IMG/VR virus record: IMGVR_UViG_2850756110_000006
DNA length: 36,404 bases
Reading direction: 5' to 3' (one strand)
DNA from: a virus
Taxonomy: Duplodnaviria > Heunggongvirae > Uroviricota > Caudoviricetes
In this document: positions 2,230 through 36,086 of the stretch, piece after piece
Layout of the letters: each line of letters opens with the position of its first letter
Numbering within the stretch: the stretch's first letter is position 1
Notes under the pieces: model-generated
Databases searched by the model: none
What the model saw: only the letters and a program-made list of their open reading frames with translations
What the model was told of the DNA's origin: nothing
Program-made: the position numbers and the translations under genes

Positions 2230-4677
2230 TTAACCGTCATGCATCATGCTGGCACGGGCGCGCGCACGTTTATCCCGCTCGTATTTTTCGAGCGCATCCT
2301 GTAACTGGCGGTCAGGCTGTGTCCCCGGCGCAGTACCACCCGTCAGGCTGATGTGATATTCGTTTTTACTCTGGTCCACATAAGAGCGGCCAGCCGGTGC
2401 CGTAACCGGCTGATAAGCCTGATAGCCTGCATAAGAGCTGGTCGCCGGAATATAACCACCGGTGCCATACGTGGCGGCATTAGTCCTTGCGGCGGTCTGG
2501 TCAAGTGTGTCTGACTCTTTGTTAATAACACCGAGTTTTTCCAGTACCCAGTCAATACCACTGCGCAGTTTGTTGAACGCATTAAGCGGCAGCATCAACG
2601 CGTCAGCCAGTGCCTGCCCGAACATGACGCCCGTGTCACGGAAACGGTTCAGGGTGTCCTGTGTGGCTTTAACCGGGGCAATCAGGTTTTTAAACCACTG
2701 CCACGCGGCCTGTAACTTTTCGCCCAGCCAGTCAAACACCGGCTTAAGTGGCGTGAACAGTTCCCCCACCGGCGCAAATGCCGCTTTCAGCCCTTCCACC
2801 ACACCGCCAAAGAATGCGCTGACAGGCTCCCAGTATTTACGGATAAGCAACGCCCCGGCGACAATGGCGGCCACCACGGCCACAACCGGCCAGCTAATCG
2901 CTCCAATGGCGGTCATAACAGCACTGCCAACCGTCGTGAAGATTGCCCCCATTGCGCCTGCTGCCGCGATGATGGCATTGATGCCGGTGATAACCGGCCA
3001 GGCTACGAGGCCAATGGCGCCGATGACACCAATCATTGCCAGTGCACCACCGACAATGATGCCGATGGTTGACGCCAGTGATTTGTTTTTCTGGATCCAG
3101 CCGTCGAGTTTTAACACATACTTTGTGGCCGTCTGCGTGAGCTTACGCAGTGCGCCTTCCTGCTGGTCAAACAGGTCAGTCCCCACCGCCTCATAAGCGG
3201 ACTGAAACTCCTTAAAGTCACCGCCGAGGTTGTCCTGCATGATATTTACCAGCTCTGCGGTCTTTCCGTCTGAGGCTTTAAACGCAGCGGTCAGTTTGTC
3301 CAGCTTTCCGGTTGAGGCGGCAGTCATCAGCACGGCGGCGGCTGAACTGGCCTCCTCCCCGAAAATGGTTTTCATGTATTCAGCCTGCTGGGCAGTACCG
3401 AGCCGGTTTTTCTCAAAACTGGCCTGCATTTCTTTCAGAATGGTAAATACTGGTCGGGTGTTTCCCTTACTGTCTGAGGTTTTCACACCAAGCTCTTTGA
3501 GTGCATCCCATGCTTTTCCCGTCGGTGCCTGCAGGCGGCTTAACACGGCACGGCTTCCCGTTCCCGCCATTGAGCCTGTGATTTTTGCATCATGCAGCGC
3601 CCCGACCATTGCGGCGGTTTCTTCAATGCTGACACCGGCATTTTTTGCCACAGGTGCGGCATAGGTCAGCGCATCGCTCATGCCGTCAAAATCGGCGGCG
3701 GTTTTGTTCATCGTCATGGAGAGAACATCCCCGATATGAGCGACCTTATCGTTTGAAAGCTGAAAGGCGGATTTCATCCCCATCAGCAGGGCGGCGTTTT
3801 CTTCCATCGTGCGACGGTTCGCCAGCGCCATATTCAGCGTGACCGGCGTTGCCGCCTGAATGGCATCAACATCCCCACCGGCTTTCGCAATAATAATCTG
3901 CGCACCAGCTGCATCATCTGCCGAGGCTGCGGTATTGTCGCCGAGCTGACGCGCCTGCTTGCGTAGTGCAGCCATTTCGGCGGAGTCTTTTACCACTCCG
4001 AGCACGGCCTGCAATTCTGAGTTTTTCTGCGCAAACTCATAACCGGGCATCAGCAGCTTAACTCCGGCCATCGTTCCCGCCGCCGCAATCCCCACACCGG
4101 CAGCGCCCACCGAGGCCATATTTCCGGCCAGTTCCTTTCCGGCCTGATAACGCTGTTTTACTGCGTTAAGTTTTGCCTGTTGTGCACTGACACGCGCCAG
4201 CGCGTCGCGCTGACGGTTAAGCTGTGCGGTGGTTTCACTGATACGGTTTTTCAGTCCCTGCTCATCATGTGCAAGATTGCGGGTATTAATTCCCACAGCG
4301 GCCAGTTCCCGCTGCTGGCGTTTAACGGAATCTGTCAGGCGGTTATATTTCGCCTGTAAGTCCTCCGCCGCACGCTTTGCGGATTCCAGCACTTTCGCCT
4401 GAGCACGGGTCGGACGTTCGGTGTTTTTAAACTGTGTGGCAAGGGCTTCGGCCTCCTGCCGTGCCTTTTCAAGTGCATGACCAGTCACGGCGAGCTGTGC
4501 ACTGGTCTTGCGGAATCCCTCAATACGGGATGCCTGACCGTTCAGCTCGCGCAGTGATTTTTGTGTTTCCCGGATATCCCCCGACAGCGATTTGCTCGCT
4601 GTGCGGATGGATTTAAACGGGCGGGATGCCTGGTCAACAGCCCTGAGCAATACCTGTAATTTTACATTGTTACTCAT
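2230..4677 (-). CDS. T: Tail tape measure protein T (815 aa)
   Basis: 815 aa, hydrophobic Gly/Ala-rich central region, P2 gpT position and length; ATG overlaps E' stop. Confidence 0.95.
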   Translation of the reverse strand: MSNNVKLQVLLRAVDQASRPFKSIRTASKSLSGDIRETQKSLRELNGQASRIEGFRKTSAQLAVTGHALEKARQEAEALATQFKNTERPTRAQAKVLESAKRAAEDLQAKYNRLTDSVKRQQRELAAVGINTRNLAHDEQGLKNRISETTAQLNRQRDALARVSAQQAKLNAVKQRYQAGKELAGNMASVGAAGVGIAAAGTMAGVKLLMPGYEFAQKNSELQAVLGVVKDSAEMAALRKQARQLGDNTAASADDAAGAQIIIAKAGGDVDAIQAATPVTLNMALANRRTMEENAALLMGMKSAFQLSNDKVAHIGDVLSMTMNKTAADFDGMSDALTYAAPVAKNAGVSIEETAAMVGALHDAKITGSMAGTGSRAVLSRLQAPTGKAWDALKELGVKTSDSKGNTRPVFTILKEMQASFEKNRLGTAQQAEYMKTIFGEEASSAAAVLMTAASTGKLDKLTAAFKASDGKTAELVNIMQDNLGGDFKEFQSAYEAVGTDLFDQQEGALRKLTQTATKYVLKLDGWIQKNKSLASTIGIIVGGALAMIGVIGAIGLVAWPVITGINAIIAAAGAMGAIFTTVGSAVMTAIGAISWPVVAVVAAIVAGALLIRKYWEPVSAFFGGVVEGLKAAFAPVGELFTPLKPVFDWLGEKLQAAWQWFKNLIAPVKATQDTLNRFRDTGVMFGQALADALMLPLNAFNKLRSGIDWVLEKLGVINKESDTLDQTAARTNAATYGTGGYIPATSSYAGYQAYQPVTAPAGRSYVDQSKNEYHISLTGGTAPGTQPDRQLQDALEKYERDKRARARASMMHDG

Positions 4678-6986: not shown

Positions 6987-6997
6987 TGGATTTGCCC

Positions 6998-7903
6998 CTA
7001 TATTTCCAGACATCTGTTATCACTTAACCCATTACAAGCCCGCTGCCGCAGATATTCCCGTGGCGAGCGATAACCCAGCGCACTATGCGGATGCCATTCG
7101 TTATAATGCTCGAACGCCTCTGCAAGGTTCTTTGCTGCCGTTAACCCGTCTGGTTTGGGCATGATACTGATGTAGTCACGCTTTATCGTTTTCACGAAGC
7201 TCTCTGCTATTCCGTTACTCTCCGGACTCCGCACCGCCGTGTTCTTCGGTTCAAGTCCCAACATCCGGGCGAACTGGCGTGTTTCATTAGCCCGGTAGCA
7301 TGAACCATTATCCGTCAGCCACTCCACTGGAGACGACGGAAGATCGTTGCCGAAGCGGCGTTCCACCGCTCCCAGCATGACGTCCTGTACTGTTTCACTG
7401 TTGAAGCCGCCGGTAGTCACCGCCCAGTGCAGTGCCTCACGATCACAGCAGTCCAGCGCGAACGTGACACGCAGTCTCTCTCCGTTATCACAGCAGAACT
7501 CGAACCCGTCAGAGCACCATCGCTGATTGCTTTCTTTCACGGCCACTCTGCCTGTATGTGCCCGTTTCGATGGCGGTACAGCAGGTTTTCGCTCAAGCAA
7601 CAGCGCATTCTGGCGCATGATCCGGTAAACACGTTTGGCATTGATCGCAGGCATACCATCAAGTTCTGCCTGTCTGCGAAGCAGCGCCCATACCCGACGA
7701 TAACCATACGTGGGCAGCTCTCCGATAACATGGTGTATACGGAGAAGCACATCCGTATCATCAGTGTGACGACTGCGGCGGCCATCCATCCAGTCATCGG
7801 TTCGTCTGAGAATGACGTGCAACTGCGCACGCGACACCCGGAGACAACGGCTGACTAAGCTTACTCCCCATCCCCGGGCAATAAGGGCGCGTGCGCTATC
7901 CAC
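6998..7903 (-). CDS. insD: IS2 transposase OrfB (InsD, 301 aa)
   Basis: [34 protein letters not shown]... matches IS2 InsD; integrase-like core. Confidence 0.9.
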
Positions 7904-8226
7904 TTTTTTGCCCGTCCATATTCAACGGCTTCTTTGAGGAGTTCATTTTCCATCGTTTTCTTGCCGAGCAGGCGCTGGAGTTCTTTAATCTGCTTCATGG
8001 CGGCAGCAAGTTCAGAGGCAGGAACAACCTGTTCTCCGGCGGCCACAGCAGTAAGACTTCCTTCCTGGTATTGCTTACGCCAGAGAAATAACTGGCTGGC
8101 TGCTACACCATGTTGCCGGGCAACGAGGGAGACCGTCATCCCCGGTTCAAAGCTCTGCTGAACAATTGCGATCTTTTCCTGTGTGGTACGCCGTCTGCGT
8201 TTCTCCGGCCCTAAGACATCAATCAT
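7861..8226 (-). CDS. insC: IS2 OrfA (InsC, 121 aa); an A6G slippery site at + coordinates 7904-7910 would fuse it to InsD
   Basis: [41 protein letters not shown]... matches IS2 InsC; CAAAAAAG on the minus strand just upstream of the insD ATG. Confidence 0.9.
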
Positions 8227-8399
8227 CTGTACTCCAATGACTAGTCTAAAAACTAGTATTAAGACTATCACTTATTTAAGTGATACTGGTTGTCTGGAGA
8301 TTCAGGGGGCCAGTCTAACGGGCAATTCGCCCGCCTGTCCTAGTTTGTACTCACTCATTTTCCGACTGACAATTTACATAGCCAAAACGCTATCAAATC

Positions 8400-8548: not shown

Positions 8549-9358
8549 ATGACGAAAATTAGTGAACGATGGAAGCACAATGGCATTACTGAAGGTTATT
8601 GCAATATTTGTGGGAAATATGGCTTGCTCACAAAAGATCATGTTCCTCCAAAGTGCGCCATAACCTTAGGCCCTGTTTTGCAGAAAACAGTTAGCGAATT
8701 TTTTGGTATTCAGGAACCAGTTAAACCATTAAATGCTAAAAATGGCTCTTATTTCAGAACCATTTGCAGCCACTGTAACAATAAGGTATTAGGTGGGCTC
8801 GATGTTGCAATTGAAAATGTAACAAAGTCCTTTAAAGAACAGTTAAGTCGATATATGAATGGTATGAATGTATATCCATTCATTAGAATACCTTTTGATA
8901 GCATATCTTTCACTAAGGCTATGATTGGGCACGTGCTATCAGCAACTTCAGTTGAAGATTGTAAAAAAGAACCCGTAGATAGCCCCTTCTATACACCTTT
9001 AAAGGATTATGTTTTGGGTAAAAATTCAAGTTTTGAGGAAACTCATGATATTTACTACTGGTTTTACCCACACAGAATGCACATATCCGCTCAAAGTGTA
9101 GCATTTATGAACGAAGGACATGTGGCATTTATTTGTGCTTTACATTTTTTTCCTATCGGTTTTATTATCACAATGAAAAATGAAGGAACATACCCTGCCC
9201 ACTCTACAAAATTAGAACTTGAAGATAAATTCCTTACATTTAATATGACCTCTATAAATTATGAGTATACGACATTTCCATTTGTAAATCTTAAGGGAAA
9301 CCAAATGTATGCGATAAGCAACGGTCATACTTGTGTGAGTTATCCAATAATTAAGTGA
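8549..9358 (+). CDS. AT-rich accessory protein (269 aa) with N-terminal HNH/His-Me-finger-like motif (CxxC...DHVPP...CSHCNNK) and an unrecognised C-terminal domain
   Basis: Intact ORF with GAGGGA SD 7 nt before the ATG; C18-x2-C21, D30-H31, C-x2-C-N-N-K spacing resembles HNH nucleases; base composition far more AT-rich than flanking phage genes. Confidence 0.75.
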   Translation: MTKISERWKHNGITEGYCNICGKYGLLTKDHVPPKCAITLGPVLQKTVSEFFGIQEPVKPLNAKNGSYFRTICSHCNNKVLGGLDVAIENVTKSFKEQLSRYMNGMNVYPFIRIPFDSISFTKAMIGHVLSATSVEDCKKEPVDSPFYTPLKDYVLGKNSSFEETHDIYYWFYPHRMHISAQSVAFMNEGHVAFICALHFFPIGFIITMKNEGTYPAHSTKLELEDKFLTFNMTSINYEYTTFPFVNLKGNQMYAISNGHTCVSYPIIK

Positions 9359-9412
9359 CGGCTAAATCATACAATCTACGCATGTTCACTTTCTACATAT
9401 ACCATCTATAAT

Positions 9413-9437
9413 GTCCGCTGTTGGCACAAAGCAGACG
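9413..9437. repeat. Imperfect palindrome, motif copy B, between the convergent 269-aa and 425-aa genes
   Basis: GTCCGCTGTT-GGCAC-AAAGCAGACG, related to copies A and C. Confidence 0.55.
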
Positions 9438-9498
9438 CCCACTCTCACGCGAATGCTTTGCCCTTGACTTGCCAACAACCGTATCGCTTGCTCCGCAA

Positions 9499-10776
9499 CT
9501 ATGGTTTTTTATTAGAATCTTCGCCACTAAATAAATTATAATAAATTGATTTTATTAGATATCTGTCAGAATCTATATGGTCAGCACGAGTAGCATGCTC
9601 TAATGTTTCAAATGCTAGGGTTTGTGCGGCTTCAGCAAAAATTCCAGGCCAACCCTTACTCAGCATCGACAGTCCTTTAAGGACCCTTATCTGAATTTCC
9701 CTCATACTGGCACCATCGCGCGCAACAGGTGAGAAAAAGTCTTCAAGTAGATCGTTATTCTGAAGTGGTGCAACATGTACAGAAGGATATTTCACTTCTA
9801 TTTCATCAGATTTATTCTGCGCGTAAGCGGAAAGTATACGTACACCTCTGCCAATGACATCAATGGCGGTTCCAGGATCGTTCACTGCGGGGGAAAGGGC
9901 TCGGCAGGCTATTTCGGCCATGACGCTAAGACAAAATCGGGGGTCCTGAGCAAATGAACGTACATCCGAGACAATAATCGTCTCAAGTAAATCGGTGCTG
10001 ATTGATGACTCCTGGCCCTGACTCAGGTACAAAACTGGCGTGGACGGATGTATGAAACTGCCCGGCTGCGCCACGAGGTATACATGACGGGGATCATTGG
10101 TCAGCAGCTTGCTGAGTTTCACCATATCAACATATTCAACATAGCCAATCTTTTTCGGATAAACTGCAACCGTTCCTTTCGGCTGTTCATTGTTCTCAAG
10201 CCATGGATATCCGCCGAGACAGGGATTTCTTGCTCTCGCAATAAATGTTTCGATGGCCGCCTGTTCTACTTTTGCCGTTGTCTCACCAACCCTCCCCAGA
10301 GAGGTCAAATGCTGTATCCAGCGAAGCAATGTGATGAGGATTAAGGCAATGACAACCAGTGTTACAATGAATAAAATGACTCTCCCCCTTTCTCCATAAG
10401 CTCCCATATTGAGGGCAATAATCCCTACCAGACTGAAGAGAAAAGAACCGATGAAGGTGGCCAGTACATTTTGTGTGGTGACGTCTTCAACAACTAAACG
10501 AGTAGCTCTGGGAGTCACATTAGTAGTGGCTGAACCGTAGGCTGTGACCATGATGCTCAGCGAAAATGTGGTCACTGCCAGCATACTCGATGCCAGTATG
10601 TTCAGAATGTTATCGACTGCTTCCGCACCAACCTTCACGGAAACCGACTCAGGTATCATTGATTTAAAAAGAATTGATAAAAGGGCCGTTATTATTGCGA
10701 CAATTGCGAATAACGTTGCCCTGAACCATAGTTTTTTAAATGTCTGCTTCAGCATCCATTTCCAGCGTGAAATCAT
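9499..10776 (-). CDS. Membrane protein of unknown function (about 425 aa): four predicted N-terminal TM helices plus a roughly 270-aa soluble C-terminal domain; possibly DUF2254-like
   Basis: Intact ORF; start chosen at the second ATG (10776), which has a GAGGGA SD, the track start at 10791 does not; hydrophobic segments ATLFAIVAIITALLSILF, ILASSMLAVTTFSLSIMV, VLATFIGSFLFSLVGIIAL, VILFIVTLVVIALILITLL; family assignment from memory only. Confidence 0.7.
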   Translation of the reverse strand: MISRWKWMLKQTFKKLWFRATLFAIVAIITALLSILFKSMIPESVSVKVGAEAVDNILNILASSMLAVTTFSLSIMVTAYGSATTNVTPRATRLVVEDVTTQNVLATFIGSFLFSLVGIIALNMGAYGERGRVILFIVTLVVIALILITLLRWIQHLTSLGRVGETTAKVEQAAIETFIARARNPCLGGYPWLENNEQPKGTVAVYPKKIGYVEYVDMVKLSKLLTNDPRHVYLVAQPGSFIHPSTPVLYLSQGQESSISTDLLETIIVSDVRSFAQDPRFCLSVMAEIACRALSPAVNDPGTAIDVIGRGVRILSAYAQNKSDEIEVKYPSVHVAPLQNNDLLEDFFSPVARDGASMREIQIRVLKGLSMLSKGWPGIFAEAAQTLAFETLEHATRADHIDSDRYLIKSIYYNLFSGEDSNKKP

Positions 10777-10839
10777 TCTGCATTCCCTCATATTGCAGCC
10801 GGGATAAATAAATGCCGCCTCTGTGGCGGCATGTTGCTG

Positions 10840-12840
10840 TTAACGAACCAGATGCAGGAAGTGCAGGTGTTTTTCGTACTGGTCCAGTATGTCATTAATC
10901 AGCTGTTCCTGATTCCAGCCCATTACATCATAATTTTGGCCGCCCTCTTTGAGATAGACTTCAGCGCGATAATATCGATGTTGTTCACTCTGCTGCTCAT
11001 CATTATCCAGCGCAGCGAGCGCGAAGGTCGGTGAGTTATACCCGCGAAGCCTCACTTCATATATATAATTCAGCTCGTTGCCCAAATCGACTTCAAGGCG
11101 AATACGATCCTCGGCGGCGTCACTGATGTGGCTTATCGTTCCCTGCTTGTTAAGTTCCTCCTGAACCAGCGTCATGGCGGGTTGGATAATGTCGTCCATA
11201 AAACGTTTCACAAGAGAGCGCTTCGGCAAATACGCGATATTGCGTAACCTTCTCTGCCAGGGAATTGGGTTACGTGCAGCCGTAGGAGCAATAGTCGCCA
11301 TGCTAAGGCTTTCACGCTTGGTCAAATCCCGACGCAGGGCTTTTAACAGTCCGTATATGGATATTAATAAGATAACTGAGAAGGGCAATGCACTCGCTAT
11401 CGTTACGGTTTGCAACGCACTCAGCCCCCTGCGATCAGCAGGGCAATAGCAACAACGCCCATGAGCAATGCCCAGAAAATTCGCTGCCAGACGGGCGTGT
11501 TTGCCACCCCACCTGATGCCAGAGTATCCACAACCATTGCCCCGAATCAGCAGACGTTACAAAGAAGACGATGACCATCGCCATTGCAATGAATGACAGC
11601 ACGGAAGAGAACGGGAAATGCTCCAGGAAATTAAACAGGGCAAGCGCAACATCCTGCTGAACGGTATTGGCGAGGTCAGTGGCGCCCTGGTTCATGATGA
11701 GATAGATGGCGCTGTTTCCAAACACCGTCATCCACATGAGCGTAAAGCCGGCGGGAACAAACAACACGCCAGTCACGAACTCACGAATTGTCCTGCCGCG
11801 GGAAACGCGTGCAATGAACATACCTACAAACGGCGACCATGAAAGCCACCATCCCCAGTATAATAATGTCCAGCCCCCAGCCAGTTGCTCGACTTGGGTT
11901 CATACGCGTAAAGGTTGAACGTTTTACTCACCAGTTCCGACAGATAACCACCCGTATTTTCCACAAATGACTTCAGCAGAAGCACAGTGGGACCCAGGCA
12001 CAAGACCAGCGCCAGGAGCAACACCGCCAGGCCCAGATTAAGCTCAGACAGGATGCGTATTCCCTTGTCCAGGCCGGACACCACCGAAATCGTCGCTAAC
12101 CCCGTGATGACCACGATCAAAATGACCTGTACCGTTTCATTGATGGGCACGCCGAAAAGATGGTTCAAACCGGCATTCACCTGCAATACACCGTAACCCA
12201 GCGATGTTGCAACGCCAAAGACAGTGCCTATCACGGCGAAGATATCAACCGCGTGGCCTATAGGCCCGTAAATGCGATCGCCGATAATGGGATAGAGCGC
12301 AGAACGCAGCGTTAAAGGCAGACCGTGACGGTAACTGAAAAAGGCCAGAATCAGCGCCACGATGGCATAAATTGCCCATGCGTGCAGACCCCAGTGGAAG
12401 AACGTCAGGCGCATGGCTTCCTTCGCTGCCGCAACGGTCTCTGGAGTGCCGACAGGTGGCGAAAGATAATGCATCACAGGTTCGGCAACGCCAAAGAACA
12501 TCAGGCCGATCCCCATCCCTGCCGAAAAAAGCATCGCGAACCAGGAGTGGTAGCTGAAATCAGGCTGCGCATGGTCTGGGCCCAGCTTTATATCACCGTA
12601 ACGTGAGAGTCCAAGGAACGTGACGCTCAGTAAAATCAGGGCCACAGCAAGTATGTAGAACCAGCTGGCATTCGTGAAGATTTGTTGCTGAAGTAGTTTA
12701 AAATTTTTGTCGGCGACATCCGGGAATACGGCGGCAAAGGCGACAAGAAGGAAAATTAGCAAAGCAGATGTAAAGAATACCGCTTTGTTAACCTGGCTTG
12801 TAGACTTCTTTGGGGTTGTATCATTTTCACTCATAATCAT
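10840..12840 (-). pseudogene. BCCT-family (BetT-like) betaine/choline transporter gene broken by at least three frameshifts
   Basis: Fragments 11824-12840, 11435-11821 and 10840-11415 carry consecutive BCCT segments, including [32 protein letters not shown] recovered only by switching frame near 11880; further shifts near 11510 and 11425. Confidence 0.8.
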
Positions 12841-17571: not shown

Positions 17572-18197
17572 AGAGGACTCCCGGTTGTGCCGCCGCTGTC
17601 GCCGGGGTGTTTATGGGTATGCAGTACCTTCCCGTTTGATGAAAGTTCACCGCCGGTGTGTTCAATGTTGCCGCGCATCGTCCCGCCCTTCTGCACTTCC
17701 AGCGTGCCGGTAATCAGCTTGTTGGTGCAGACCACCTCCGGTGTGTCCAGGGTGACGCGGGTTGATGCTTTCACCATGACCACCGGCACCGTGGCAGTAA
17801 CAGAATCAGAAGCCGTCACGCTGGCCGTTTTAATTCCGCTTACCGTGAGTGCACTGGTTTCAGGTTCATACTCAATCACCGCCCCGTCAGGGAAACGGAT
17901 ATGCAGGGCATCCGCCGACGCCGACGGCGCGGGGTTATCGCCGGAATAAATCCCCGGCAGAACGAACGCCGTGTCGAGTTCACCGCCCACGGCCAGAATC
18001 AGCACCTGTTCCCCCACGGAAGGTGCCCACCATGTGCGCGAACGACCGGCGCGATGGGTCAGCCACTGAAGCCAGTCGGTGCACATGCCGCCGGTCTGCA
18101 CACGGCAGCGACCGGCATTAAGGTCGGTTTCGACGATAATGCCAGTGCGAATCATATTGCGTATAAAGCGAAGAATTTCATTGTATTGTGCATTCAT
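17568..18197 (-). CDS. V: Baseplate spike protein V (about 210 aa); N-terminal ~15 residues differ from P2
   Basis: From ...RNMIRTGIIVETDLNAGRCRVQTGG onward matches P2 gpV; ATG at 18197, the track ORF starts at an upstream TTG. Confidence 0.9.
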   Translation of the reverse strand: MNAQYNEILRFIRNMIRTGIIVETDLNAGRCRVQTGGMCTDWLQWLTHRAGRSRTWWAPSVGEQVLILAVGGELDTAFVLPGIYSGDNPAPSASADALHIRFPDGAVIEYEPETSALTVSGIKTASVTASDSVTATVPVVMVKASTRVTLDTPEVVCTNKLITGTLEVQKGGTMRGNIEHTGGELSSNGKVLHTHKHPGDSGGTTGSPL

Positions 18198-18283
18198 TCG
18201 ATAATAATGATTCTGTACAATCTCGAAGTAAATCACACCACGATTTCTGGTGCACAGAACAACAAGGGACAACAAAATCCATT

Positions 18284-18949
18284 ATGAGTACTTACTTTTT
18301 CTCGTCAGAAACAATGAAAGAATTGTTCAAAGATTATCTGGTCTTTTTGAACACGCTGACTCCCGGCACAAACTTTGAATCAAGCAGAAACAAAATAATT
18401 GCTCAAGCAATAAACTTCATTTCCGAAAACCCTGAAGATTGGGACAAAAAATCCCAGTACAACATTGCTATGATTGGCGACACCTTTAAAAGTTTCTTAA
18501 GAGAAAAGGGAGAAGATAACAACAGCATCAACCTTATATTCACTTGCTTTTTTAGATTTATCATTGAACCAAGCATTCTCTCTCCGGAAATAGAGTCTCA
18601 CTTTTCACCACTAAGAACCATCAAGGATTTTGCTCTGTATAACTATAATGAATTCGATGAGCGGAGCAGAGCACAGATAGACTTTTCTCTTAGAGAACTG
18701 CCATTAGCAATGGTTAAAGAAGTTTTAAGCTCCAGCAATGTTGACACATATAAAAAATACATTGATAGTTTAAACGAAGGGCGTCAATTTTTCGAAAAGT
18801 GCGACTCCTTCTTAAAGGAGCAACATGCCAAAATAGAGTCAATCAAAGAGTCATTAAAAGGGTATGAGGTCGCATTTAATTTTGTTGGATTGTTTGAAGG
18901 CTTTAATTCACTTGGCAAAAAGAAAGTGAAATCATGCTATCAAGAATAA
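18284..18949 (+). CDS. Hypothetical protein (221 aa), first gene of an AT-rich cassette inserted between V and S
   Basis: Intact ORF with AAGGGA SD-like sequence upstream of the ATG at 18284; strongly AT-rich; no recognisable motif; the track start at 18188 lies inside V and is rejected. Confidence 0.65.
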   Translation: MSTYFFSSETMKELFKDYLVFLNTLTPGTNFESSRNKIIAQAINFISENPEDWDKKSQYNIAMIGDTFKSFLREKGEDNNSINLIFTCFFRFIIEPSILSPEIESHFSPLRTIKDFALYNYNEFDERSRAQIDFSLRELPLAMVKEVLSSSNVDTYKKYIDSLNEGRQFFEKCDSFLKEQHAKIESIKESLKGYEVAFNFVGLFEGFNSLGKKKVKSCYQE

Positions 18950-19353
18950 TTCTTATCATCTTGGCTATAATCATTCCCTCCCCGCTGATATACTATGGAA
19001 TGCATAAATTACCAGCTCTCGAAACGACAAATGCTGCCACATATTTTATGTCAGCACTACCTTTTGCATCAGTTACATTGATTTTCATGTATTACTTTAG
19101 AGTTGTACTGCTAAATCATATATCGTTACGAACTCAGATTATGCAAATAGAACTCAGAAAGAGCCTTTGTCAGTTCATTCAGAGTTATAGCGACTATTCC
19201 TCAGAGATAAGGAAAAACAATCCGGAAGCGCTTTCAAAATTCGAAGACGTAGTATTTTCAAACATCATGCTATCCGATGATAAGATACCATCTACATTTG
19301 ATGGCATTGAGCAAATAGCATCGTTAATCAATTCATTAAAAAATGGAAAGTAA
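18934..19353 (+). CDS. Small membrane protein (139 aa, two predicted N-terminal TM helices), overlapping the preceding gene by 16 nt
   Basis: ATG at 18934 overlaps the upstream stop at 18947-18949; hydrophobic MLSRIILIILAIIIPSPLIYYG and YFMSALPFASVTLIFMYYFRVVLL. Confidence 0.65.
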   Translation: MLSRIILIILAIIIPSPLIYYGMHKLPALETTNAATYFMSALPFASVTLIFMYYFRVVLLNHISLRTQIMQIELRKSLCQFIQSYSDYSSEIRKNNPEALSKFEDVVFSNIMLSDDKIPSTFDGIEQIASLINSLKNGK

Positions 19354-25835: not shown

Positions 25836-27608
25836 ATGACCATCACCACAGACACCACTCTTTTACACGACCCGCGTCGTCAGGCGGCGCTGCTGTACTG
25901 GCAGGGATTTTCCGTGCCGCAGATTGCCGCCATGTTGCAGATGAAACGCCCGACGGTGCAGAGCTGGAAGCAGCGCGACGGCTGGGACAGCGTTGCCCCC
26001 ATCAGCCGTGTCGAAATGAGTCTGGAAGCGCGGCTGACCCAGCTCATCATCAAACCGCAGAAAACCGGCGGTGACTTCAAGGAAATTGACCTGCTCGGAC
26101 GCCAGATTGAACGACTGGCACGGGTCAACCGTTACAGTCAGACCGGCAACGAGGCAGACCTTAATCCGAACGTCGCTAACCGCAACAAAGGCGGGCGTCG
26201 CAAACCGAAAAAGAATTTTTTCAGTGACGAGGCCATCGAAAAGCTGGAGCAGATTTTCTTTGAGCAGTCTTTCGACTATCAGTTGCACTGGTATCGCGCC
26301 GGGCTTGAGCACCGCATCCGCGATATCCTGAAATCCCGCCAGATTGGCGCGACGTTTTATTTTTCCCGCGAGGCGCTGCTGCGCGCCCTGAAAACCGGCC
26401 ATAACCAGATTTTTCTGTCGGCCAGTAAAACGCAGGCGTATGTGTTCCGTGAATACATCATCGCCTTTGCCCGTCTGGTTGACGTTGACCTTACCGGTGA
26501 CCCGATTGTCCTGGGCAATAACGGCGCAAAACTGATTTTTCTCGGCACCAACTCCAACACCGCACAGAGCCATAACGGCGACCTGTACGTCGATGAGATT
26601 TTCTGGATCCCGAATTTTCAGGTACTGCGTAAGGTGGCATCAGGTATGGCCTCACAGAGCCACCTGCGCTCGACCTATTTCTCCACCCCGTCCACGCTGG
26701 CGCACGACGCCTACCCGTTCTGGTCGGGTGAACTGTTCAACCGGGGACGCGCCAGCGCCGCCGAACGCGTGGAAATCGACGTCAGTCATAACGCCCTTGC
26801 CGGAGGTCTTCTCTGTGCGGACGGCCAGTGGCGGCAGATTGTCACCATTGAGGACGCCCTGAAAGGCGGCTGCACGCTGTTCGACATTGAGCAGCTCAAA
26901 CGCGAAAACAGCGCCGACGATTTTAAAAACCTGTTCATGTGTGAATTTGTTGACGACAAGGCATCGGTGTTCCCGTTCGAGGAGCTGCAACGCTGCATGG
27001 TCGACACGCTGGAAGAATGGGAAGACTATGCACCCTTTGCCGCCAATCCGTTCGGCTCCCGCCCGGTATGGATTGGTTACGACCCGTCACACCGTGGCGA
27101 CAGTGCCGGATGCGTGGTGCTGGCACCGCCGGTGGTGGCCGGTGGCAAATTCAGAATACTTGAGCGTCACCAGTGGAAAGGCATGGACTTTGCCACCCAG
27201 GCTGAATCCATCCGCAAACTCACCGAAAAATATAACGTCGAATACATCGGTATTGATGCCACCGGCCTCGGTGTCGGCGTGTTCCAGCTCGTGCGCTCGT
27301 TCTATCCTGCCGCGCGCGATATCCGCTACACACCGGAAATGAAAACCGCAATGGTGCTCAAGGCAAAAGACGTTATCCGCCGTGGCTGTCTGGAATATGA
27401 CGTCAGCGCCACCGACATCACCAGCTCGTTTATGGCTATCCGCAAGACCATGACCAGCAGCGGACGCATCGCCACCTATGAGGCCAGCCGCAGCGAGGAA
27501 GCCAGCCACGCCGACCTCGCCTGGGCGACCATGCACGCCCTGTTAAATGAGCCACTCACCGCCGGTATCAGCACCCCGCTGACATCCACCATTCTGGAGT
27601 TTTACTGA
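25836..27608 (+). CDS. P: Terminase large subunit (ATPase) P (590 aa)
   Basis: MTITTDTTLLHDPRRQAALLYWQGFSVPQIAAML... matches P2 gpP; GGCGAGG SD; stop overlaps the Q start (TGATG). Confidence 0.95.
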   Translation: MTITTDTTLLHDPRRQAALLYWQGFSVPQIAAMLQMKRPTVQSWKQRDGWDSVAPISRVEMSLEARLTQLIIKPQKTGGDFKEIDLLGRQIERLARVNRYSQTGNEADLNPNVANRNKGGRRKPKKNFFSDEAIEKLEQIFFEQSFDYQLHWYRAGLEHRIRDILKSRQIGATFYFSREALLRALKTGHNQIFLSASKTQAYVFREYIIAFARLVDVDLTGDPIVLGNNGAKLIFLGTNSNTAQSHNGDLYVDEIFWIPNFQVLRKVASGMASQSHLRSTYFSTPSTLAHDAYPFWSGELFNRGRASAAERVEIDVSHNALAGGLLCADGQWRQIVTIEDALKGGCTLFDIEQLKRENSADDFKNLFMCEFVDDKASVFPFEELQRCMVDTLEEWEDYAPFAANPFGSRPVWIGYDPSHRGDSAGCVVLAPPVVAGGKFRILERHQWKGMDFATQAESIRKLTEKYNVEYIGIDATGLGVGVFQLVRSFYPAARDIRYTPEMKTAMVLKAKDVIRRGCLEYDVSATDITSSFMAIRKTMTSSGRIATYEASRSEEASHADLAWATMHALLNEPLTAGISTPLTSTILEFY

Positions 27609-28642
27609 TGAGCAAGAAAAAAGGGAAAACACCGCAACCTGCGGCAAAAAAAATGACCGCCAGCGCCCCGAAAATGGAGGCATTCACCTTTGGTGAGCCG
27701 GTGCCGGTACTCGACCGCCGTGACATTCTGGATTACGTCGAGTGCATCAGTAACGGCAGATGGTATGAGCCACCGGTCAGCTTTACCGGTCTGGCAAAAA
27801 GTCTGCGTGCTGCCGTGCATCACAGCTCACCGATTTACGTTAAACGCAATATTCTGGCCTCGACATTTATCCCGCATCCGTGGCTTTCCCAGCAGGATTT
27901 CAGCCGCTTTGTGCTGGATTTTCTGGTGTTCGGTAATGCGTTTCTGGAAAAGCGATACAGCACCACCGGTAAGGTCATCAGACTGGAAACCTCACCGGCA
28001 AAATATACCCGCCGTGGTGTGGAGGAGGATGTTTACTGGTGGGTACCGTCCTTCAACGAGCCGACACCTTTCACGCCCGGCTCCGTATTTCACCTGCTGG
28101 AGCCCGATATTAATCAGGAGCTGTACGGCCTGCCGGAATATCTCAGCGCCCTTAACTCTGCCTGGCTGAATGAATCGGCCACGCTGTTCCGCCGCAAGTA
28201 TTACGAAAACGGCGCACATGCCGGATACATCATGTACGTCACCGATGCCGTGCAGGATCGCAACGATATCGAAATGCTCCGCGAAAACATGGTGAAGTCG
28301 AAAGGCCGCAACAACTTTAAAAACCTGTTTCTCTATGCCCCACAGGGGAAAGCCGACGGCATTAAAATTATCCCGCTCAGTGAAGTGGCAACGAAGGACG
28401 ATTTTTTTAATATCAAAAAAGCCAGCGCCGCTGACCTGCTGGACGCGCACCGCATCCCCTTTCAGTTGATGGGCGGCAAGCCGGAGAACGTCGGGTCGCT
28501 GGGCGATATTGAGAAAGTGGCAAAGGTCTTTGTCCGCAATGAGCTTATCCCGCTACAGGACAGGATCCGCGAGATAAACGGCTGGCTCGGCCAGGAAGTC
28601 ATCCGCTTTAAAAACTACTCACTGGACACTGACAACAGCTGA
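27608..28642 (+). CDS. Q: Portal protein Q (344 aa)
   Basis: Matches P2 gpQ. Confidence 0.95.
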   Translation: MSKKKGKTPQPAAKKMTASAPKMEAFTFGEPVPVLDRRDILDYVECISNGRWYEPPVSFTGLAKSLRAAVHHSSPIYVKRNILASTFIPHPWLSQQDFSRFVLDFLVFGNAFLEKRYSTTGKVIRLETSPAKYTRRGVEEDVYWWVPSFNEPTPFTPGSVFHLLEPDINQELYGLPEYLSALNSAWLNESATLFRRKYYENGAHAGYIMYVTDAVQDRNDIEMLRENMVKSKGRNNFKNLFLYAPQGKADGIKIIPLSEVATKDDFFNIKKASAADLLDAHRIPFQLMGGKPENVGSLGDIEKVAKVFVRNELIPLQDRIREINGWLGQEVIRFKNYSLDTDNS

Positions 28643-28647
28643 ACATC

Positions 28648-28668
28648 GCCGCCTGCGGGCGGCTTTTT
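28648..28668 (+). terminator. Rho-independent terminator after Q
   Basis: GCCGCC-TGC-GGGCGGC followed by TTTTT. Confidence 0.7.
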
Positions 28669-28811
28669 ACACCCCGTCATCACGCCCTCATACGCTCACC
28701 ACCGCACAAAACACCCCGCAGACACACCAACGGCCCCGGCGAACAATCTAAACGCCATCACGACGCGCTCAGACGCTGAAAAAATAAAATCAGCACCACC
28801 GCCAGCGCGCA

Positions 28812-28830
28812 GTGCTTTCCCCGCCTCGCC
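28812..28830. other. cos: cos site (19-nt cohesive-end sequence)
   Basis: GTGCTTTCCCCGCCTCGCC is the reverse complement of the recalled P2 cohesive end GGCGAGGCGGGGAAAGCAC. Confidence 0.75.
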
Positions 28831-29045
28831 CGCCCGCTTTATGGGTCGGTTTTAATGCAGGTGCACGAATACACCGGAGGCGCGCCGGCACTGGTGGCGC
28901 TCAGACGCAACAGGGGAGGAAAACGCATGCAATTGAATGCATTTCTAGGCACACCTAAAAATGAAAAAATGTTATGACAATTAATCATTTTAAACACACT
29001 GATTAAGGGTAGAATTCTCCTAGTAAAATCATAGAAAAACCGCTA

Positions 29046-29974
29046 TCAAACCAGGCTTTTGCCTTGCTTCATTTTTTTAGATGAGTCTAAAAATTTGAAA
29101 TTATCATTAGATGAAAATATTCTTTCTGCGGTATGCCGAATGACTGAAGTATTGAAGACCGCAGCCTGCTCCTCATTACAACTGAATACACCCTCATGAC
29201 CATCAAACTCGCCCGCCAAAAGAAGGTTTTTTGATACTGGGAACAAAACTAAAGTGTCTTTTACACCAAACCCGGGGAATAAGGGCCTCGTGCTAATTCA
29301 GGATTAGTCCACATTAAGCAAACTGGGTTATCTGAAGTTATAAATGACCCTTGCCCATCAGATATGGTCATAAGTGACCAGTTGCGTTGATGCAACAACT
29401 TGGTGATAACAGGTACACATTTCATTTCCATATCTATCATGAACTCTCTGATTACATTGATTTCGAAATTATCCCCATCCACAAAATTTTTAATTTTTTC
29501 GTAAGCGAGATCATATGGCAAAGACTCACCCATTTCTTTCTCATAAGCTAATTTGCAATCGTCCCAACGCTCAGCCGAACTAACTGAGGATTTCATGATA
29601 AACTTTGCTATTTGTTTCAATGGAGATGATAAATGTTCTCGCTGAGCAGGCGTACGTATTGCCAATAAGGAAATAAACTCCAGAATAACATCTTTGGTTT
29701 CGCCTGAAAACTCGCCCCCTCCTCAAGTTTTCTTAAATGAGTAGCGACACTGCCTTCAAACTCTGCAAGAGAACTCTCGAGATAGTTTGGGTCAACTCCA
29801 TCCAATTCTAATCGGTTGAAATCTCTAACCCCCCCCGACATTGCGAGTATTACTCTCAAAGGTTTTGCGCTCCTTTAAATCTATTACAGTTAATTTTGAT
29901 TTTTTCCCCCCATTACTTGTAAACCCTTTCAAATAACATTGGGATAAAAAATGATGATGCCTTGCAACACTCAT
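29046..29974 (-). pseudogene. AT-rich DUF4238-like gene at the tin/old position, split into four frame-shifted fragments
   Basis: N-terminus MSVARHHHFLSQCYLKGFTS resembles the DUF4238 HxxPQFYLKxF motif (from memory); frame breaks at a G8/C8 run (29829-29836), near 29617-29665 and near 29246-29261. Confidence 0.65.
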
Positions 29975-30077
29975 ACTCAGCTCCGTTATGGCTATAATCG
30001 CATAAATAATAAGCACTTATATTGCAATCATCTAGTTAAATACACAATATTTATGACTCCGAAATTTCATTAAATCA

Positions 30078-32249
30078 CTATTGATAGGTTTTACCAATTA
30101 GTGCCAGCTCGAAATGGATGCGTGGAATCTGCGAACGTTCAGCCTTTGTCATCCGCCCTGATGGCGCTATCTGGTACGGTTTTAATGGTTCGCAGTTTCT
30201 TTGTTGCCAATTCGGTCTCGGTGCACCATGTTTTAATGCACTCCTGAGCACCGTCACAACTTCCGGGTCATCCCATCCGATAACACCACTATCAACCAGA
30301 TTTAACACCGCTGCGGCATGCTCAGACGGTGTAGGGTGCATAACCGGAACGTCACCGCCGGTGAACTTTCCACAGTTATTGACAGGACTCCGAGGCGCGG
30401 CGATGCCGCTTTTTAAAGTCAAAGGCTCAACGACCGGCACTTTCGGCACAATGCGCCAGTCCGTCGTTCTGGTGATATGAATATGACGCGCGCCGAGATG
30501 CGGCGCGTAAATGCCGACCACTCTCTCGACTTCTTCCTCGTACTCGTTAACTTCATCCGACGGGCTACGGGCGACCCTGACAGTCTGACAATCGCGCGGG
30601 ACATTTGCCCCACCCTGCGCGCTGATATACAACGCAAAATCACCACTGTCTGCGGCGGCGCGAGCAGCCTCGACGCGCTCGTCAAACTCATCAGCAATGC
30701 TGACGCCGCGCGGCAATTTGCGTAGTTCACGGTAAGCCCCCATTGTCGGCAGACCAACCGTTTTAAATTGTGGGATGCGCCACGTTGACGCCCATGCGGT
30801 AACAGCCGCGGCAGTATCTTTAAGCGGCTTACCGGTATCGTTATCGAGCTGACCATCCAGTGCATAGCCGTCGATATTTTTTGAGATGTATTTCGCGATA
30901 TACCCCGCAGCACCGCCCCGGTTAAGGTGTTTCGCCTGAAAACGGTTTCGCGCAGCTCCTCTTTCGTCGCCATCCTCTTTGAGCGCATAGCGACGCATGA
31001 TTTCGATAATCTGGTTACGCTGGCGCGGATTACAAAAAAGCATCATATGCCAGTGCGGCGTTCCGTCGTGGTGTGGCTCGACGACACGCAAACCGTAGAC
31101 CTGTAAATCATTATCCTTGAATGCCGTGCGCATCAGGCTCCAGATACGGCAGAGATAACGCTGCGCATCCTTTGGATTAAATGCCTCATCGTTCCAGCCG
31201 TGATTTAGCTGGACGGTTTTACTTTCGCCTTTTCTGACCTGACGTGTCGGGTGATACTTTGACGGCGCGGTCAGCGTGATAAACATCCCCACATCACCCT
31301 CTGCTGCGGCGTAACGCTCAATACCGGCAATGGTGTTCATCAGCTCCATCCGGCGAATTTCAGGATTAGAAATACTGCCCATCACCTTACTGATAAGGTC
31401 GATGCGCTCGCCGGTTTCCCTGTTTTCAAGGTCACATGATTTAAGAAATTCCAGATTTGCCTGGCGGCGCGCACGCACATCACGAATGGCATGTTTACTG
31501 GCATAAGGAGAACGGTCTTTATTGACCTCCCCGACAGCTATCAGTAACGCCTCATGCCAGCGCATACGCTGGCCTTTAAGCTGATGAGTCCACCACTCAT
31601 CGTTAAACAGGCGGGCAATGGCAGAATATGCCTGCCTCGTGGTCATCTGTCCTTTACGGTATTTTTTCCAGTAGAGCGGGGAAATATTGAAAGCACGTGC
31701 AGCGCCAGCAACATGACCATAAAGGTGAGCCTGCGCCTCATCCGTAAACAGCGATTCTTTTTCGCCATGTGCATCAACCCAGGCATCGCAGAGTTCCTCA
31801 TACATCATGAAAAGCTGCGATGAGATACGGGCAGCAAACTTTTTCAGCTCCTTGTCATTCATTCCCGGCAGGCGCGCATAGTGGTCACGCTCTGCCAGAA
31901 ACAGCAACGACGCGTCGGTGTTCATTTCATGGCGCTGATTCACACGCTCAATGCGCGGCCATAAACGACGCTGAAAAGTGGATGTGAGGAAATAAAACCC
32001 GTGCACCGGGCTTTTATTGCGCCGGATGTAGTCATAACGTGAAGTAAACAGCGAGCGCAAAAAGTAAGGCAGGCGGTTAATCGTGGATAAAACACCTTGC
32101 ACCTGACGCATCTCGTCACGTGTAAGGGGTCTTTCGCGCCCGACAGCCTCGCGTGGCGCGTTCCATGCATAAGCACCGGTAAACGTCTTACCGGTGCCTG
32201 CGGCAAATGCTGACGGAGGGACAAAACGCCCGGAGGCTTTAACGGCCAT
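30078..32249 (-). CDS. A: Replication initiation protein A (rolling-circle nickase, about 723 aa)
   Basis: MAVKASGRFVPPSAFAAGTGK... matches P2 gpA; HHDGTPHWHMML HUH-like motif and YIAKYISK tyrosines; track ORF starts at an upstream TTG. Confidence 0.9.
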   Translation of the reverse strand: MAVKASGRFVPPSAFAAGTGKTFTGAYAWNAPREAVGRERPLTRDEMRQVQGVLSTINRLPYFLRSLFTSRYDYIRRNKSPVHGFYFLTSTFQRRLWPRIERVNQRHEMNTDASLLFLAERDHYARLPGMNDKELKKFAARISSQLFMMYEELCDAWVDAHGEKESLFTDEAQAHLYGHVAGAARAFNISPLYWKKYRKGQMTTRQAYSAIARLFNDEWWTHQLKGQRMRWHEALLIAVGEVNKDRSPYASKHAIRDVRARRQANLEFLKSCDLENRETGERIDLISKVMGSISNPEIRRMELMNTIAGIERYAAAEGDVGMFITLTAPSKYHPTRQVRKGESKTVQLNHGWNDEAFNPKDAQRYLCRIWSLMRTAFKDNDLQVYGLRVVEPHHDGTPHWHMMLFCNPRQRNQIIEIMRRYALKEDGDERGAARNRFQAKHLNRGGAAGYIAKYISKNIDGYALDGQLDNDTGKPLKDTAAAVTAWASTWRIPQFKTVGLPTMGAYRELRKLPRGVSIADEFDERVEAARAAADSGDFALYISAQGGANVPRDCQTVRVARSPSDEVNEYEEEVERVVGIYAPHLGARHIHITRTTDWRIVPKVPVVEPLTLKSGIAAPRSPVNNCGKFTGGDVPVMHPTPSEHAAAVLNLVDSGVIGWDDPEVVTVLRSALKHGAPRPNWQQRNCEPLKPYQIAPSGRMTKAERSQIPRIHFELALIGKTYQ

Positions 32250-35900: not shown

Positions 35901-35927
35901 AATCTCCCTTACACGGGCTTATTTTTT
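35901..35927. repeat. P2 att core copy (27 bp), int-proximal prophage junction
   Basis: Exact direct repeat of 145-171. Confidence 0.85.
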
Positions 35928-36086
35928 TATGCATAAGCCCTATCTCTGGTAACCGTCTTCCATTGACCACATCGATAGAATCCTCCTTCATAGCACGATG
36001 CCTTTCACTTATCGGCATCGTGCTCCCACAGGTTCCGGCTACGCACAGCCAGAACGCGCATATTTGACGCTTACCAAAAAATATTC

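What the first reader, a model, noticed from the sequence alone, without database searches (positions are those of the whole stretch)
29046..30016. Frame-shifted DUF4238-like gene at the tin/old hotspot, with one break at a G8/C8 homopolymer
The slot between cos and A holds tin/old in P2. Here it holds a single AT-rich gene whose N-terminus resembles DUF4238, split into four fragments. The break at 29829-29836 is at an 8-nt homopolymer, which could reflect slipped-strand phase variation, real decay or a sequencing error. The break near 29617-29665 is not at a homopolymer, which argues for genuine pseudogenisation.
Basis: partly seen in the sequence, partly recalled or inferred. Interest (0 to 1): 0.6.

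Follow-up and report, generated by a model that had tools for sequence, protein, structure and literature searches.

The report
Broken copy of known anti-phage gene
This is a disrupted copy of an already described single-gene anti-phage defence (DUF4238, active against phage T7) sitting in the usual defence slot of a P2-like prophage; one of its three frameshifts is a real inherited mutation and the other two are most likely errors of this particular genome assembly, so the finding is ordinary.

Summary
The four ORF fragments at 29046-29974 (- strand) are real. Repaired, they give the 309-aa DUF4238 protein of phage pro483 (WP_001515549.1). This protein matches PADLOC model 'DUF4238-Pers' end to end. 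It is 92% identical to the protein shown by Rousset et al. 2022 to protect E. coli against T7 from this same P2 hotspot between gpA and gpQ.

The window differs from intact alleles by zero substitutions and three 1-bp indels, all in G/C homopolymers: C8 versus C7 (29829-29836), C5 versus C6 (29715-29719), and G4 versus G5 (29274-29277).

The C8 (+1) allele is real. It occurs in five other assemblies, including an independent read-set assembly. A related draft has added a nonsense codon.

The two -1 deletions are private to this assembly (CP026805.1). So are three more -1 deletions in C runs of a cargo transporter gene. A sister chromosome shows zero substitutions over about 28 kb, and another assembly with a neighbouring accession has its own private G/C-run deletions, one of them in the tape-measure gene. 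These are most likely consensus errors.

Phase variation is unlikely, because all 24 other alleles whose tract was read or inferred were C7. Known gene, low interest.

The parts
29046..29974 (-). Disrupted DUF4238 defence gene. It is 929 nt; the intact allele is 930 nt and encodes 309 aa. ATG at 29974-29972, stop at 29048-29046.
   Evidence: ORF list. Alignment to pro483, NZ_CP062901.1 and NZ_CP036202.1. Pfam PF14022 E 4e-39 and PADLOC DUF4238-Pers 725 bits on the intact allele. The fragments hit consecutive profile segments.
29829..29836 (-). Break 1: C8 on the + strand (G8 in the coding strand), C7 in intact alleles. The +1 slip ends the N-terminal fragment after 49 aa (...NVGGG*). Judged real and inherited.
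   Evidence: The same G8 is in L006-L010, which include sister chromosome CP026834.1, the Logan assembly of run DRR015997 and three NCBI drafts. The 49-aa fragment is on record as WP_256549291.1.
29715..29719 (-). Break 2: C5 on the + strand, C6 in intact alleles (coding GAG GGG GGC, Glu-Gly-Gly). This -1 is private to this assembly when combined with break 1. Probably a consensus error.
   Evidence: tracts 8/5/4 occur only in the window and L005, while L006-L010 are 8/6/5. The 74-aa fragment P0005 is on one contig only.
29274..29277 (-). Break 3: G4 on the + strand, G5 in intact alleles (coding TCC CCC GGG, Ser-Pro-Gly). This -1 is private to this assembly. Probably a consensus error.
   Evidence: The 134-aa fragment ending ...YSPGLV is found only on CP026805.1.
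29975..30077 (-). AT-rich intergenic stretch between the stop of gene A and the DUF4238 start. It presumably carries the gene's own promoter, but none was identified.
   Evidence: Sequence. The consensus scan found no minus-strand sigma-70 match here. Rousset et al. cloned their hotspot systems with native upstream sequence.
30078..32249 (-). P2 gpA-type replication endonuclease. It is one conserved flank of the hotspot.
   Evidence: ORF. Annotated as 'replication endonuclease', 723 aa, in L001-L004. Pfam Phage_GPA in L005.
27608..28642 (+). P2 gpQ-type portal protein. It is the other conserved flank of the hotspot.
   Evidence: Phage_portal.
28643..29045 (.). cos-proximal non-coding segment between the portal gene and the cargo gene. 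It includes GTGCTTTCCCCGCCTCGCC at 28812-28830, which I recall as the complement of the P2 cohesive end.
   Evidence: Sequence. The same string is in the P2 old-tin clone printed in Table S2A of PMC9122126. The identity with cos rests on my memory and was not tested.

Best explanation
The locus is a copy of the known single-gene anti-phage system DUF4238 (DefenseFinder 'Rst_DUF4238', a name I recall from memory; PADLOC 'DUF4238-Pers'). It is carried as cargo in the cos-proximal hotspot of a P2-like prophage, between gpA and gpQ.

Intact, the gene encodes a stand-alone 309-aa protein whose close homologue (92% identical) gives strong resistance to T7. Its biochemical mechanism is unknown. My inference is a single-protein sensor-effector enzyme, based on invariant His-His, Asp, Glu and Arg positions.

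In this strain's lineage the gene was inactivated by a genuine +1 slipped-strand mutation that lengthened a poly-G tract from 7 to 8. This separates the first 48 residues, which carry invariant H7, H8, Q12 and D32, from the rest of the protein.

The other two frameshifts in the deposited sequence are -1 deletions in a G6 and a C5 run (coding strand). They are most likely consensus errors of the assembly CP026805.1. The real gene probably has one break, not three.
For: Identity of the gene:
- Zero substitutions against the pro483 and NZ_CP062901.1 alleles.
- Pfam PF14022 covers residues 7-291, E 4e-39.
- The PADLOC model matches positions 1-309 of 309 at 725 bits.
- 92% identity to the pFR101 protein from E. 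coli TA007. That protein 'provides strong resistance against T7' (PMC9122126).
- Same hotspot, with the same flanking genes.

The G8 break is real:
- The identical tract is in five other loci from different projects, including the Logan assembly of run DRR015997 and three drafts.
- These loci lie on at least three prophage backbones, differing from the window by 0-2, 89 and 126 substitutions.
- L009 has G8 plus a Y157* nonsense substitution. The matching 131-aa downstream fragment is on 41 contigs.

Breaks 2 and 3 are artefacts:
- Sister chromosome CP026834.1 and the DRR015997 assembly show 0 substitutions against the window, yet carry G6 and C5 at those sites.
- Over about 28 kb compared with the sister, the window's only private differences are five -1 deletions, all in G/C runs of 5-6. 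Three are in the BCCT cargo gene and two in this gene.
- 3 of the 4 ancestral C6 runs and 2 of the 22 G/C 5-runs are hit. None of about 100 G/C 4-runs is hit. No private change falls in any of about 60 A/T runs of 6 or more.
- CP026867.1, an assembly with a neighbouring accession number, has its own private -1 deletions in a G5 run (DUF2254 gene) and a C5 run (the tape-measure gene, which I take to be essential).
- Five indels to zero substitutions is far from any natural mutation spectrum. That comparison rests on my knowledge of E. coli mutation-accumulation rates.
Against: - I could not see reads, so the artefact call for breaks 2 and 3 is inferential.
- The sequencing platform of CP026805.1 is not known from the tools. 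I recall it as a long-read-only assembly, and this is unverified.
- The site-2 deletion also occurs alone in other assemblies (P0007, 118 aa, 10 contigs from NCBI and Logan). That run may therefore be a natural hotspot as well.
- The five private deletions all lie in non-essential cargo genes. That would also fit relaxed selection. However, one search shows that G/C runs of 6 or more exist only in those genes.
Confidence: 0.75

Rival explanations
1. All three frameshifts are real. The gene, and the BCCT cargo gene, are decaying in this strain by repeated slipped-strand deletions, for example in a mismatch-repair-deficient lineage.
For: All indels lie in non-essential cargo genes. The clade does accumulate real lesions: the G8 tract, the Y157* codon in L009, an AAAG unit deletion at 18918, an IS insertion, and an 11-bp deletion in the sister's tape-measure gene. 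The site-2 deletion is seen alone in 10 other contigs.
Against: There are zero substitutions against five private indels over about 28 kb versus the sister chromosome. Three hits in one already dead BCCT gene cannot be selected for. Only G/C runs are affected, although long A/T runs are about ten times more numerous. An assembly with a neighbouring accession has the same kind of private deletion in the tape-measure gene. Mutator spectra are dominated by transitions, by my knowledge, and none is seen.
Confidence: 0.15
2. The poly-G tract is a contingency (phase-variation) switch that reversibly turns the prophage defence gene off and on.
For: The G7 tract is the longest G/C run in the window. 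Database fragments imply G5, G6, G7 and G8 alleles. G8 appears on at least three prophage backbones, which suggests recurrent slippage. The gene has more G/C runs of 6 or more than synonymous shuffles give, p about 0.01.
Against: Off-length alleles are rare. All 14 complete E. coli copies are annotated as a DUF4238 CDS and match at 1102 bp against the window's 1101 bp; the three intact loci fetched (phage pro483 and two of these E. coli genomes) were read and are G7. All 8 IMG/VR loci and both metagenome loci are G7. The exact intact protein is on at least 1000 contigs, against 7, 3 and 2 contigs for the G8, G6 and G5 fragments. The validated TA007 allele has the tract interrupted (GGGGGTGTG) and lacks the second run, so the tract is not conserved. 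A G8 lineage has fixed a downstream nonsense codon, so it is not reverting. A 7-mer is short for a switch in a mismatch-repair-proficient enterobacterium, by my knowledge.
Confidence: 0.05
3. All three breaks are sequencing errors, and the strain carries an intact, working defence gene.
For: All three are 1-bp homopolymer changes with no substitutions. Other long-read assemblies of about 4.805 Mb give varying truncated products of this gene, of 245, 206 and 198 aa. One of them lacks many gene calls across the prophage (L028).
Against: G8 is reproduced in five other assemblies from different projects, including an independent read-set assembly and three drafts. It is accompanied by a nonsense substitution in a related draft.
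Confidence: 0.05

Closest known systems
DUF4238 single-gene defence system of Rousset et al. 2022 (plasmid pFR101, from E. coli TA007; DefenseFinder Rst_DUF4238; PADLOC DUF4238-Pers)
   Same: Same Pfam family across the full length. The repaired protein is 92% identical. It has the same single-gene architecture and the same P2 cos-proximal hotspot between gpA and gpQ.
   Different: The window copy is frameshifted, so it is predicted to be inactive. The TA007 allele lacks the G7 and second G6 runs: it has GGGGGTGTG, and EEGKD instead of EEGGE. Anti-T7 activity of this exact allele was not tested.
Escherichia phage pro483 ORF11 (YP_009211908.1), identical in sequence to WP_001515549.1
   Same: Nucleotide-identical over 28980-30080 except for the three homopolymer indels. 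Same position next to the replication and portal genes.
   Different: pro483 has the intact 930-bp ORF. Its flanking A and portal genes differ from the window by about 2%.
P2 old and tin exclusion genes
   Same: They occupy the same hotspot and play the same role, as prophage-borne exclusion of other phages.
   Different: The proteins are unrelated. old is an ATPase-TOPRIM nuclease, as stated in the paper. DUF4238 has no match to any solved fold.
Phase-variable restriction-modification genes with poly-G or poly-C tracts (Haemophilus, Neisseria, Helicobacter, Campylobacter), from my own knowledge
   Same: A defence gene interrupted at a poly-G tract by a 1-nt length change.
   Different: Here the tract is short, at 7 nt. 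It is nearly always the in-frame length in the population, it is not conserved in the nearest allele, and the off allele has begun to decay further.

Membership tests
Rst_DUF4238 / PADLOC DUF4238-Pers defence system | Protein matches Pfam PF14022 (DUF4238) over its full length | tested here: met
   Intact allele: residues 7-291 against profile 2-280 of 281, E 4.2e-39, 135 bits against a cutoff of 27. Window fragments 1-3 hit consecutive profile segments.
Rst_DUF4238 / PADLOC DUF4238-Pers defence system | Match to the curated defence-system HMM | tested here: met
   PDLC03000 DUF4238-Pers, E 1.5e-219, 725.5 bits, positions 1-309 of 309. The DefenseFinder model itself was not available.
Rst_DUF4238 / PADLOC DUF4238-Pers defence system | Stand-alone single gene, with no partner genes | tested here: met
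   It is the only gene between gpA and cos/gpQ in the window and in L001-L003. The top 150 of 7424 profile hits are all 174-390 aa, most of them about 305-335 aa, and none is long enough to hold a large fused domain. Homologues sit alone in mobile elements or defence islands.
Rst_DUF4238 / PADLOC DUF4238-Pers defence system | Close sequence relation to the experimentally validated member | tested here: met
   284 of 309 identical (92%), with no gaps, to the pFR101 protein of E. coli TA007.
Rst_DUF4238 / PADLOC DUF4238-Pers defence system | Confers resistance to phage (T7) | not testable with these tools
   Shown only for the TA007 allele (PMC9122126). The window copy is predicted to be inactive, because the frameshift cuts off residues 1-48 with invariant H7, H8, Q12 and D32.
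P2-like prophage cos-proximal defence hotspot (old/tin slot) | Variable cargo between the conserved gpA replication gene and the gpQ portal gene, next to cos | tested here: met
   gpA at 30078-32249 (-) and gpQ at 27608-28642 (+). The cargo is 34-43% GC against 52-60% in the flanks. Other prophages of the same backbone carry an ATP-dependent nuclease, or a methyltransferase with an ATP-binding protein.
Phase-variable (contingency) locus | Tract length varies widely among closely related isolates, with frequent ON and OFF states | tested here: not met
   C7 was read in all 13 intact-allele loci fetched. It is implied in all 14 complete E. coli copies by match length and CDS annotation. Off-length fragments are on 7 (G8), 3 (G6) and 2 (G5) contigs, against at least 1000 for the intact protein.
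Phase-variable (contingency) locus | Repeat tract conserved in the gene family or allele series | tested here: not met
   The 92%-identical TA007 allele has GGGGGTGTG at site 1 and no run at site 2.

The most novel reading that the evidence does not exclude
The G7 tract, and perhaps the two G6 tracts, of this DUF4238 allele act as slipped-strand switches. A P2-like prophage could then reversibly silence a costly anti-T7 defence gene in Escherichia or Shigella populations. That would be a phase-variable prophage defence in a mismatch-repair-proficient enterobacterium. The recurrence of G8 on three backbones, the existence of G5, G6 and G8 alleles, and the mild excess of G/C runs (p about 0.01) do not exclude it.
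Probability: 0.05. Interest if true: 0.55.

Novelty: already known. Interest (0 to 1): 0.13.

Why it matters
It matters little for biology. The gene, its hotspot and its anti-T7 phenotype were published in 2022. A null allele in one lineage is a routine case of loss of a defence gene.

The practical value is as a caution. In this deposited chromosome, 1-bp deletions in G/C runs of 5-6 nt inflate apparent pseudogenisation: three breaks instead of one here, and three in the neighbouring BCCT gene. ORF overlaps also mislead about where a frame change lies. Anyone counting pseudogenes or 'decayed defence systems' in such assemblies should compare them with sister genomes first.

The one open scientific point is the unknown biochemical mechanism of DUF4238. 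Its confidently predicted fold matches no solved structure.

Tried and rejected
- **BFVD.** The only hit was another uncharacterised DUF4238-like protein, in phage Smp131. No mechanistic lead came from any of these searches.
- **afdb50.** The library was not available.
- **Fusion partners.** The profile search of 1.84 billion representatives, run to look for domain fusions, gave none among the top 150 hits.
- **C5-only allele.** I could therefore not tell whether the site-2 deletion in other assemblies is short-read supported.
- **Literature.** A search for CP026805, CP026834, CP026867 and GCA_002949415 found nothing. A search for long-read homopolymer errors in Shigella genomes gave nothing usable. 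The organism name and platform of the source assembly therefore remain unverified.
- **Promoter scan.** No minus-strand sigma-70 match was found upstream of the gene, and the counts were at shuffle level.
- **Indels confined to cargo genes.** I considered whether this pattern means relaxed selection. I rejected it as the main explanation because G/C runs of 6 or more occur only in those genes. An assembly with a neighbouring accession also has the same lesion type in the tape-measure gene.
- **Genome-contig scan.** The scan for the tract found no match.

Full report
**Observation**

On the minus strand between the portal gene (27608-28642, +) and the replication gene A (30078-32249, -) there are four successive ORF fragments:
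- 29825-30016 (the true ATG is at 29974)
- 29617-29859
- 29261-29665
- 29046-29246

The stretch is AT-rich: 34-43% GC against 52-60% in the flanks. Fragments 1-3 hit consecutive parts of Pfam DUF4238. A C8 run lies at 29829-29836.

**Where the breaks really are**

Megablast found the same 1.1-kb segment in 14 of 5426 complete E. coli genomes and in phage pro483. In each case it is annotated as a 930-bp, 309-aa 'DUF4238 domain-containing protein'.

Aligned to pro483 and NZ_CP062901.1, the window shows no substitution at all. It differs by exactly three 1-bp length changes:

| Break | Window coordinates | Window (+ strand) | Intact alleles |
|---|---|---|---|
| 1 | 29829-29836 | C8 | C7 |
| 2 | 29715-29719 | C5 | C6 |
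| 3 | 29274-29277 | G4 | G5 |

The real frame change lies about 50-100 nt away, in a homopolymer. The argument built on it fails.

**What the gene is**

- The intact protein matches PF14022 over residues 7-291, E 4e-39.
- It matches the PADLOC model 'DUF4238-Pers' end to end at 725 bits, and PHROG 29785.
- Rousset et al. 2022 (PMC9122126) surveyed this P2 locus between gpA and gpQ, where P2 itself has old and tin.
- They cloned a single DUF4238 gene from E. coli TA007 (pFR101) and found 'strong resistance against T7'.
- The repaired window protein is 92% identical to that protein, with no gaps.
- WP_001515549 itself appears in their hotspot table.

The family is large: 7424 representative clusters at E <= 1e-3. 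Its top hits are stand-alone proteins of about 300-335 aa with no fusions. Homologues sit alone in mobile elements next to restriction or Gabija-like genes.

**Source of the window**

Exact look-up of the fragment proteins shows that the window is CP026805.1 (GCA_002949415.1), a 4,609,265-bp chromosome. L005 is 100% identical to the window over the overlapping stretch compared. Names attached to fragment proteins of the same alleles point to Shigella. I could not confirm the organism or the platform.

**Break 1 is real**

The 49-aa N-terminal fragment created by G8 is on record as WP_256549291.1 and occurs on seven contigs. Five loci were fetched: sister chromosome CP026834.1, the Logan assembly of run DRR015997, and three NCBI drafts. 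All five have G8 with sites 2 and 3 intact (tracts 8/6/5).

These loci lie on at least three prophage backbones, differing from the window by 0-2, 89 and 126 substitutions. The slip has therefore probably recurred.

One draft with the window's backbone (L009) carries, in addition to G8, a TAC->TAA nonsense codon at window 29501 (Y157*). The corresponding 131-aa downstream fragment is on 41 contigs. This is ordinary, progressive pseudogenisation of a null allele.

**Breaks 2 and 3 are probably assembly errors**

I compared the window with the closest complete prophage (NZ_CP062901.1) and with sister genomes. Over about 28 kb, CP026834.1 shows zero substitutions against the window. It shares the window's IS insertion, the AAAG unit deletion at 18918, the T5 run at 28663 and the G8 tract.

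The only differences private to the window are five -1 deletions, all in G/C runs:
- 11424 (C6 to C5), in the BCCT cargo gene
- 11539 (C5 to C4), in the BCCT cargo gene
- 11873 (C6 to C5), in the BCCT cargo gene
- 29714 (C6 to C5), in the DUF4238 gene
- 29273 (G5 to G4), in the DUF4238 gene

The hits depend on run length and base:
- 3 of the 4 ancestral C6 runs are hit.
- 2 of the 22 G/C 5-runs are hit.
- None of about 100 G/C 4-runs is hit.
- No private change falls in any of about 60 A/T runs of 6 or more.

G/C runs of 6 or more exist only in the cargo genes. This explains why core phage genes look spared.

A further assembly with a neighbouring accession number, CP026867.1, has its own private -1 deletions. 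One is in a G5 run of the DUF2254 gene and one in a C5 run of the tape-measure gene.

Five indels with no substitution, three of them in one gene, does not fit natural mutation, even in a mutator. That judgement rests on my knowledge of E. coli mutation spectra. The pattern does fit residual consensus errors of a long-read assembly.

One caveat remains. The site-2 deletion alone exists in ten other contigs (P0007). I could not inspect them.

**Phase variation**

The G7 tract was read in every intact-allele locus I fetched:
- pro483 and two complete E. coli loci
- 8 IMG/VR loci
- 2 metagenome loci

It is implied in all 14 complete E. coli copies by their 1102-bp match length and intact CDS annotation.

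The exact intact protein is on at least 1000 contigs. The G8, G6 and G5 fragments are on 7, 3 and 2 contigs.

The 92%-identical validated allele has the tract interrupted, and it has no second run. A G8 lineage has gone on to acquire a nonsense codon. A synonymous-codon shuffle gives a mild excess of long G/C runs, p about 0.01. That excess is post hoc, and it is explained by GGG being the main Gly codon at Gly-Gly dipeptides.

I rate a true contingency switch at about 5%.

**Verdict**

This is a known defence gene in its known hotspot. It was truly inactivated in this clade by a +1 slip in a G7 tract. In the deposited sequence it looks more fragmented than it probably is. The finding is ordinary and its interest is low. 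Read-level confirmation is the decisive missing step.

Noticed in passing
window 10840-12840 (- strand); indels at 11424, 11539, 11873: A BCCT-family transporter cargo gene, 665 aa when intact, is split into three ORFs by three -1 deletions in C6/C5/C6 runs. All three are private to this assembly: the sister CP026834.1 and eight other prophages have it intact. Same signature as breaks 2 and 3 of the DUF4238 gene.
   Followed up: yes
window 8549-12840; loci L011-L020: The BCCT (665 aa) + DUF2254 (425 aa) pair sits here between the tail fibre assembly gene and the sheath gene, which I recall as the P2 Z/fun slot. The identical pair recurs in other mobile contexts: lambdoid (Rac-like) prophages, next to Tn3 and resolvase genes, and next to the integrase, reverse-transcriptase and Psu genes of a P4-like satellite. 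The DUF2254 protein is indexed in 19,488 blocks of the collection. There is no PADLOC hit. It looks like a widely mobile two-gene module of unknown role.
   Followed up: partly
window 6987-8318: A 1.33-kb IS3-family insertion (HTH_Tnp_1 ORF plus rve ORF) lies between the hypothetical 269-aa cargo gene and the tail sheath gene. It is shared with sister CP026834.1 and absent from NZ_CP062901.1 and CP026867.1.
   Followed up: partly
window 18188-19353 (+ strand), deletion at 18918: A hypothetical gene lies on the opposite strand between the tail-completion S gene and the baseplate V gene. It is called as 347-389 aa in related prophages and has no Pfam or PADLOC hit. Here it is split by loss of one AAAG unit of an (AAAG)n repeat. 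The deletion is shared with the sister chromosome, so it is probably real.
   Followed up: partly
L022 (CP026834.1), corresponding to window 3863-3873: The sister chromosome has an 11-bp deletion in the tape-measure gene, which splits it into 306 + 525 aa. That copy of the prophage is probably defective. The window copy has the gene intact.
   Followed up: partly
L027 (CP026867.1), corresponding to window 9939 and 2763: Another chromosome with a neighbouring accession number has private -1 deletions in a G5 run (DUF2254 gene) and a C5 run (tape-measure gene). This suggests a batch-wide G/C-homopolymer consensus problem.
   Followed up: partly
window 28663-28668 and 35922-35928: Two T-run length polymorphisms relative to NZ_CP062901.1 (T5 versus T6, and T7 versus T6), both intergenic. 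The first lies in the terminator-like hairpin after the portal gene and is shared with the sister chromosome.
   Followed up: partly
proteins P0012, P0013, P0014 (XQK accessions) and L028 (CP184818.1): Several E. coli chromosomes of about 4.805 Mb give different truncated products of this same DUF4238 gene (245, 206 and 198 aa). One of them lacks many gene calls across the prophage. They look like repeated long-read assemblies of one strain with variable homopolymer errors.
   Followed up: no
window 28855-28977 (+ strand): A 40-aa ORF in the cos-proximal non-coding region is annotated as hypothetical protein ORF12 in phage pro483. It is probably not a gene.
   Followed up: no
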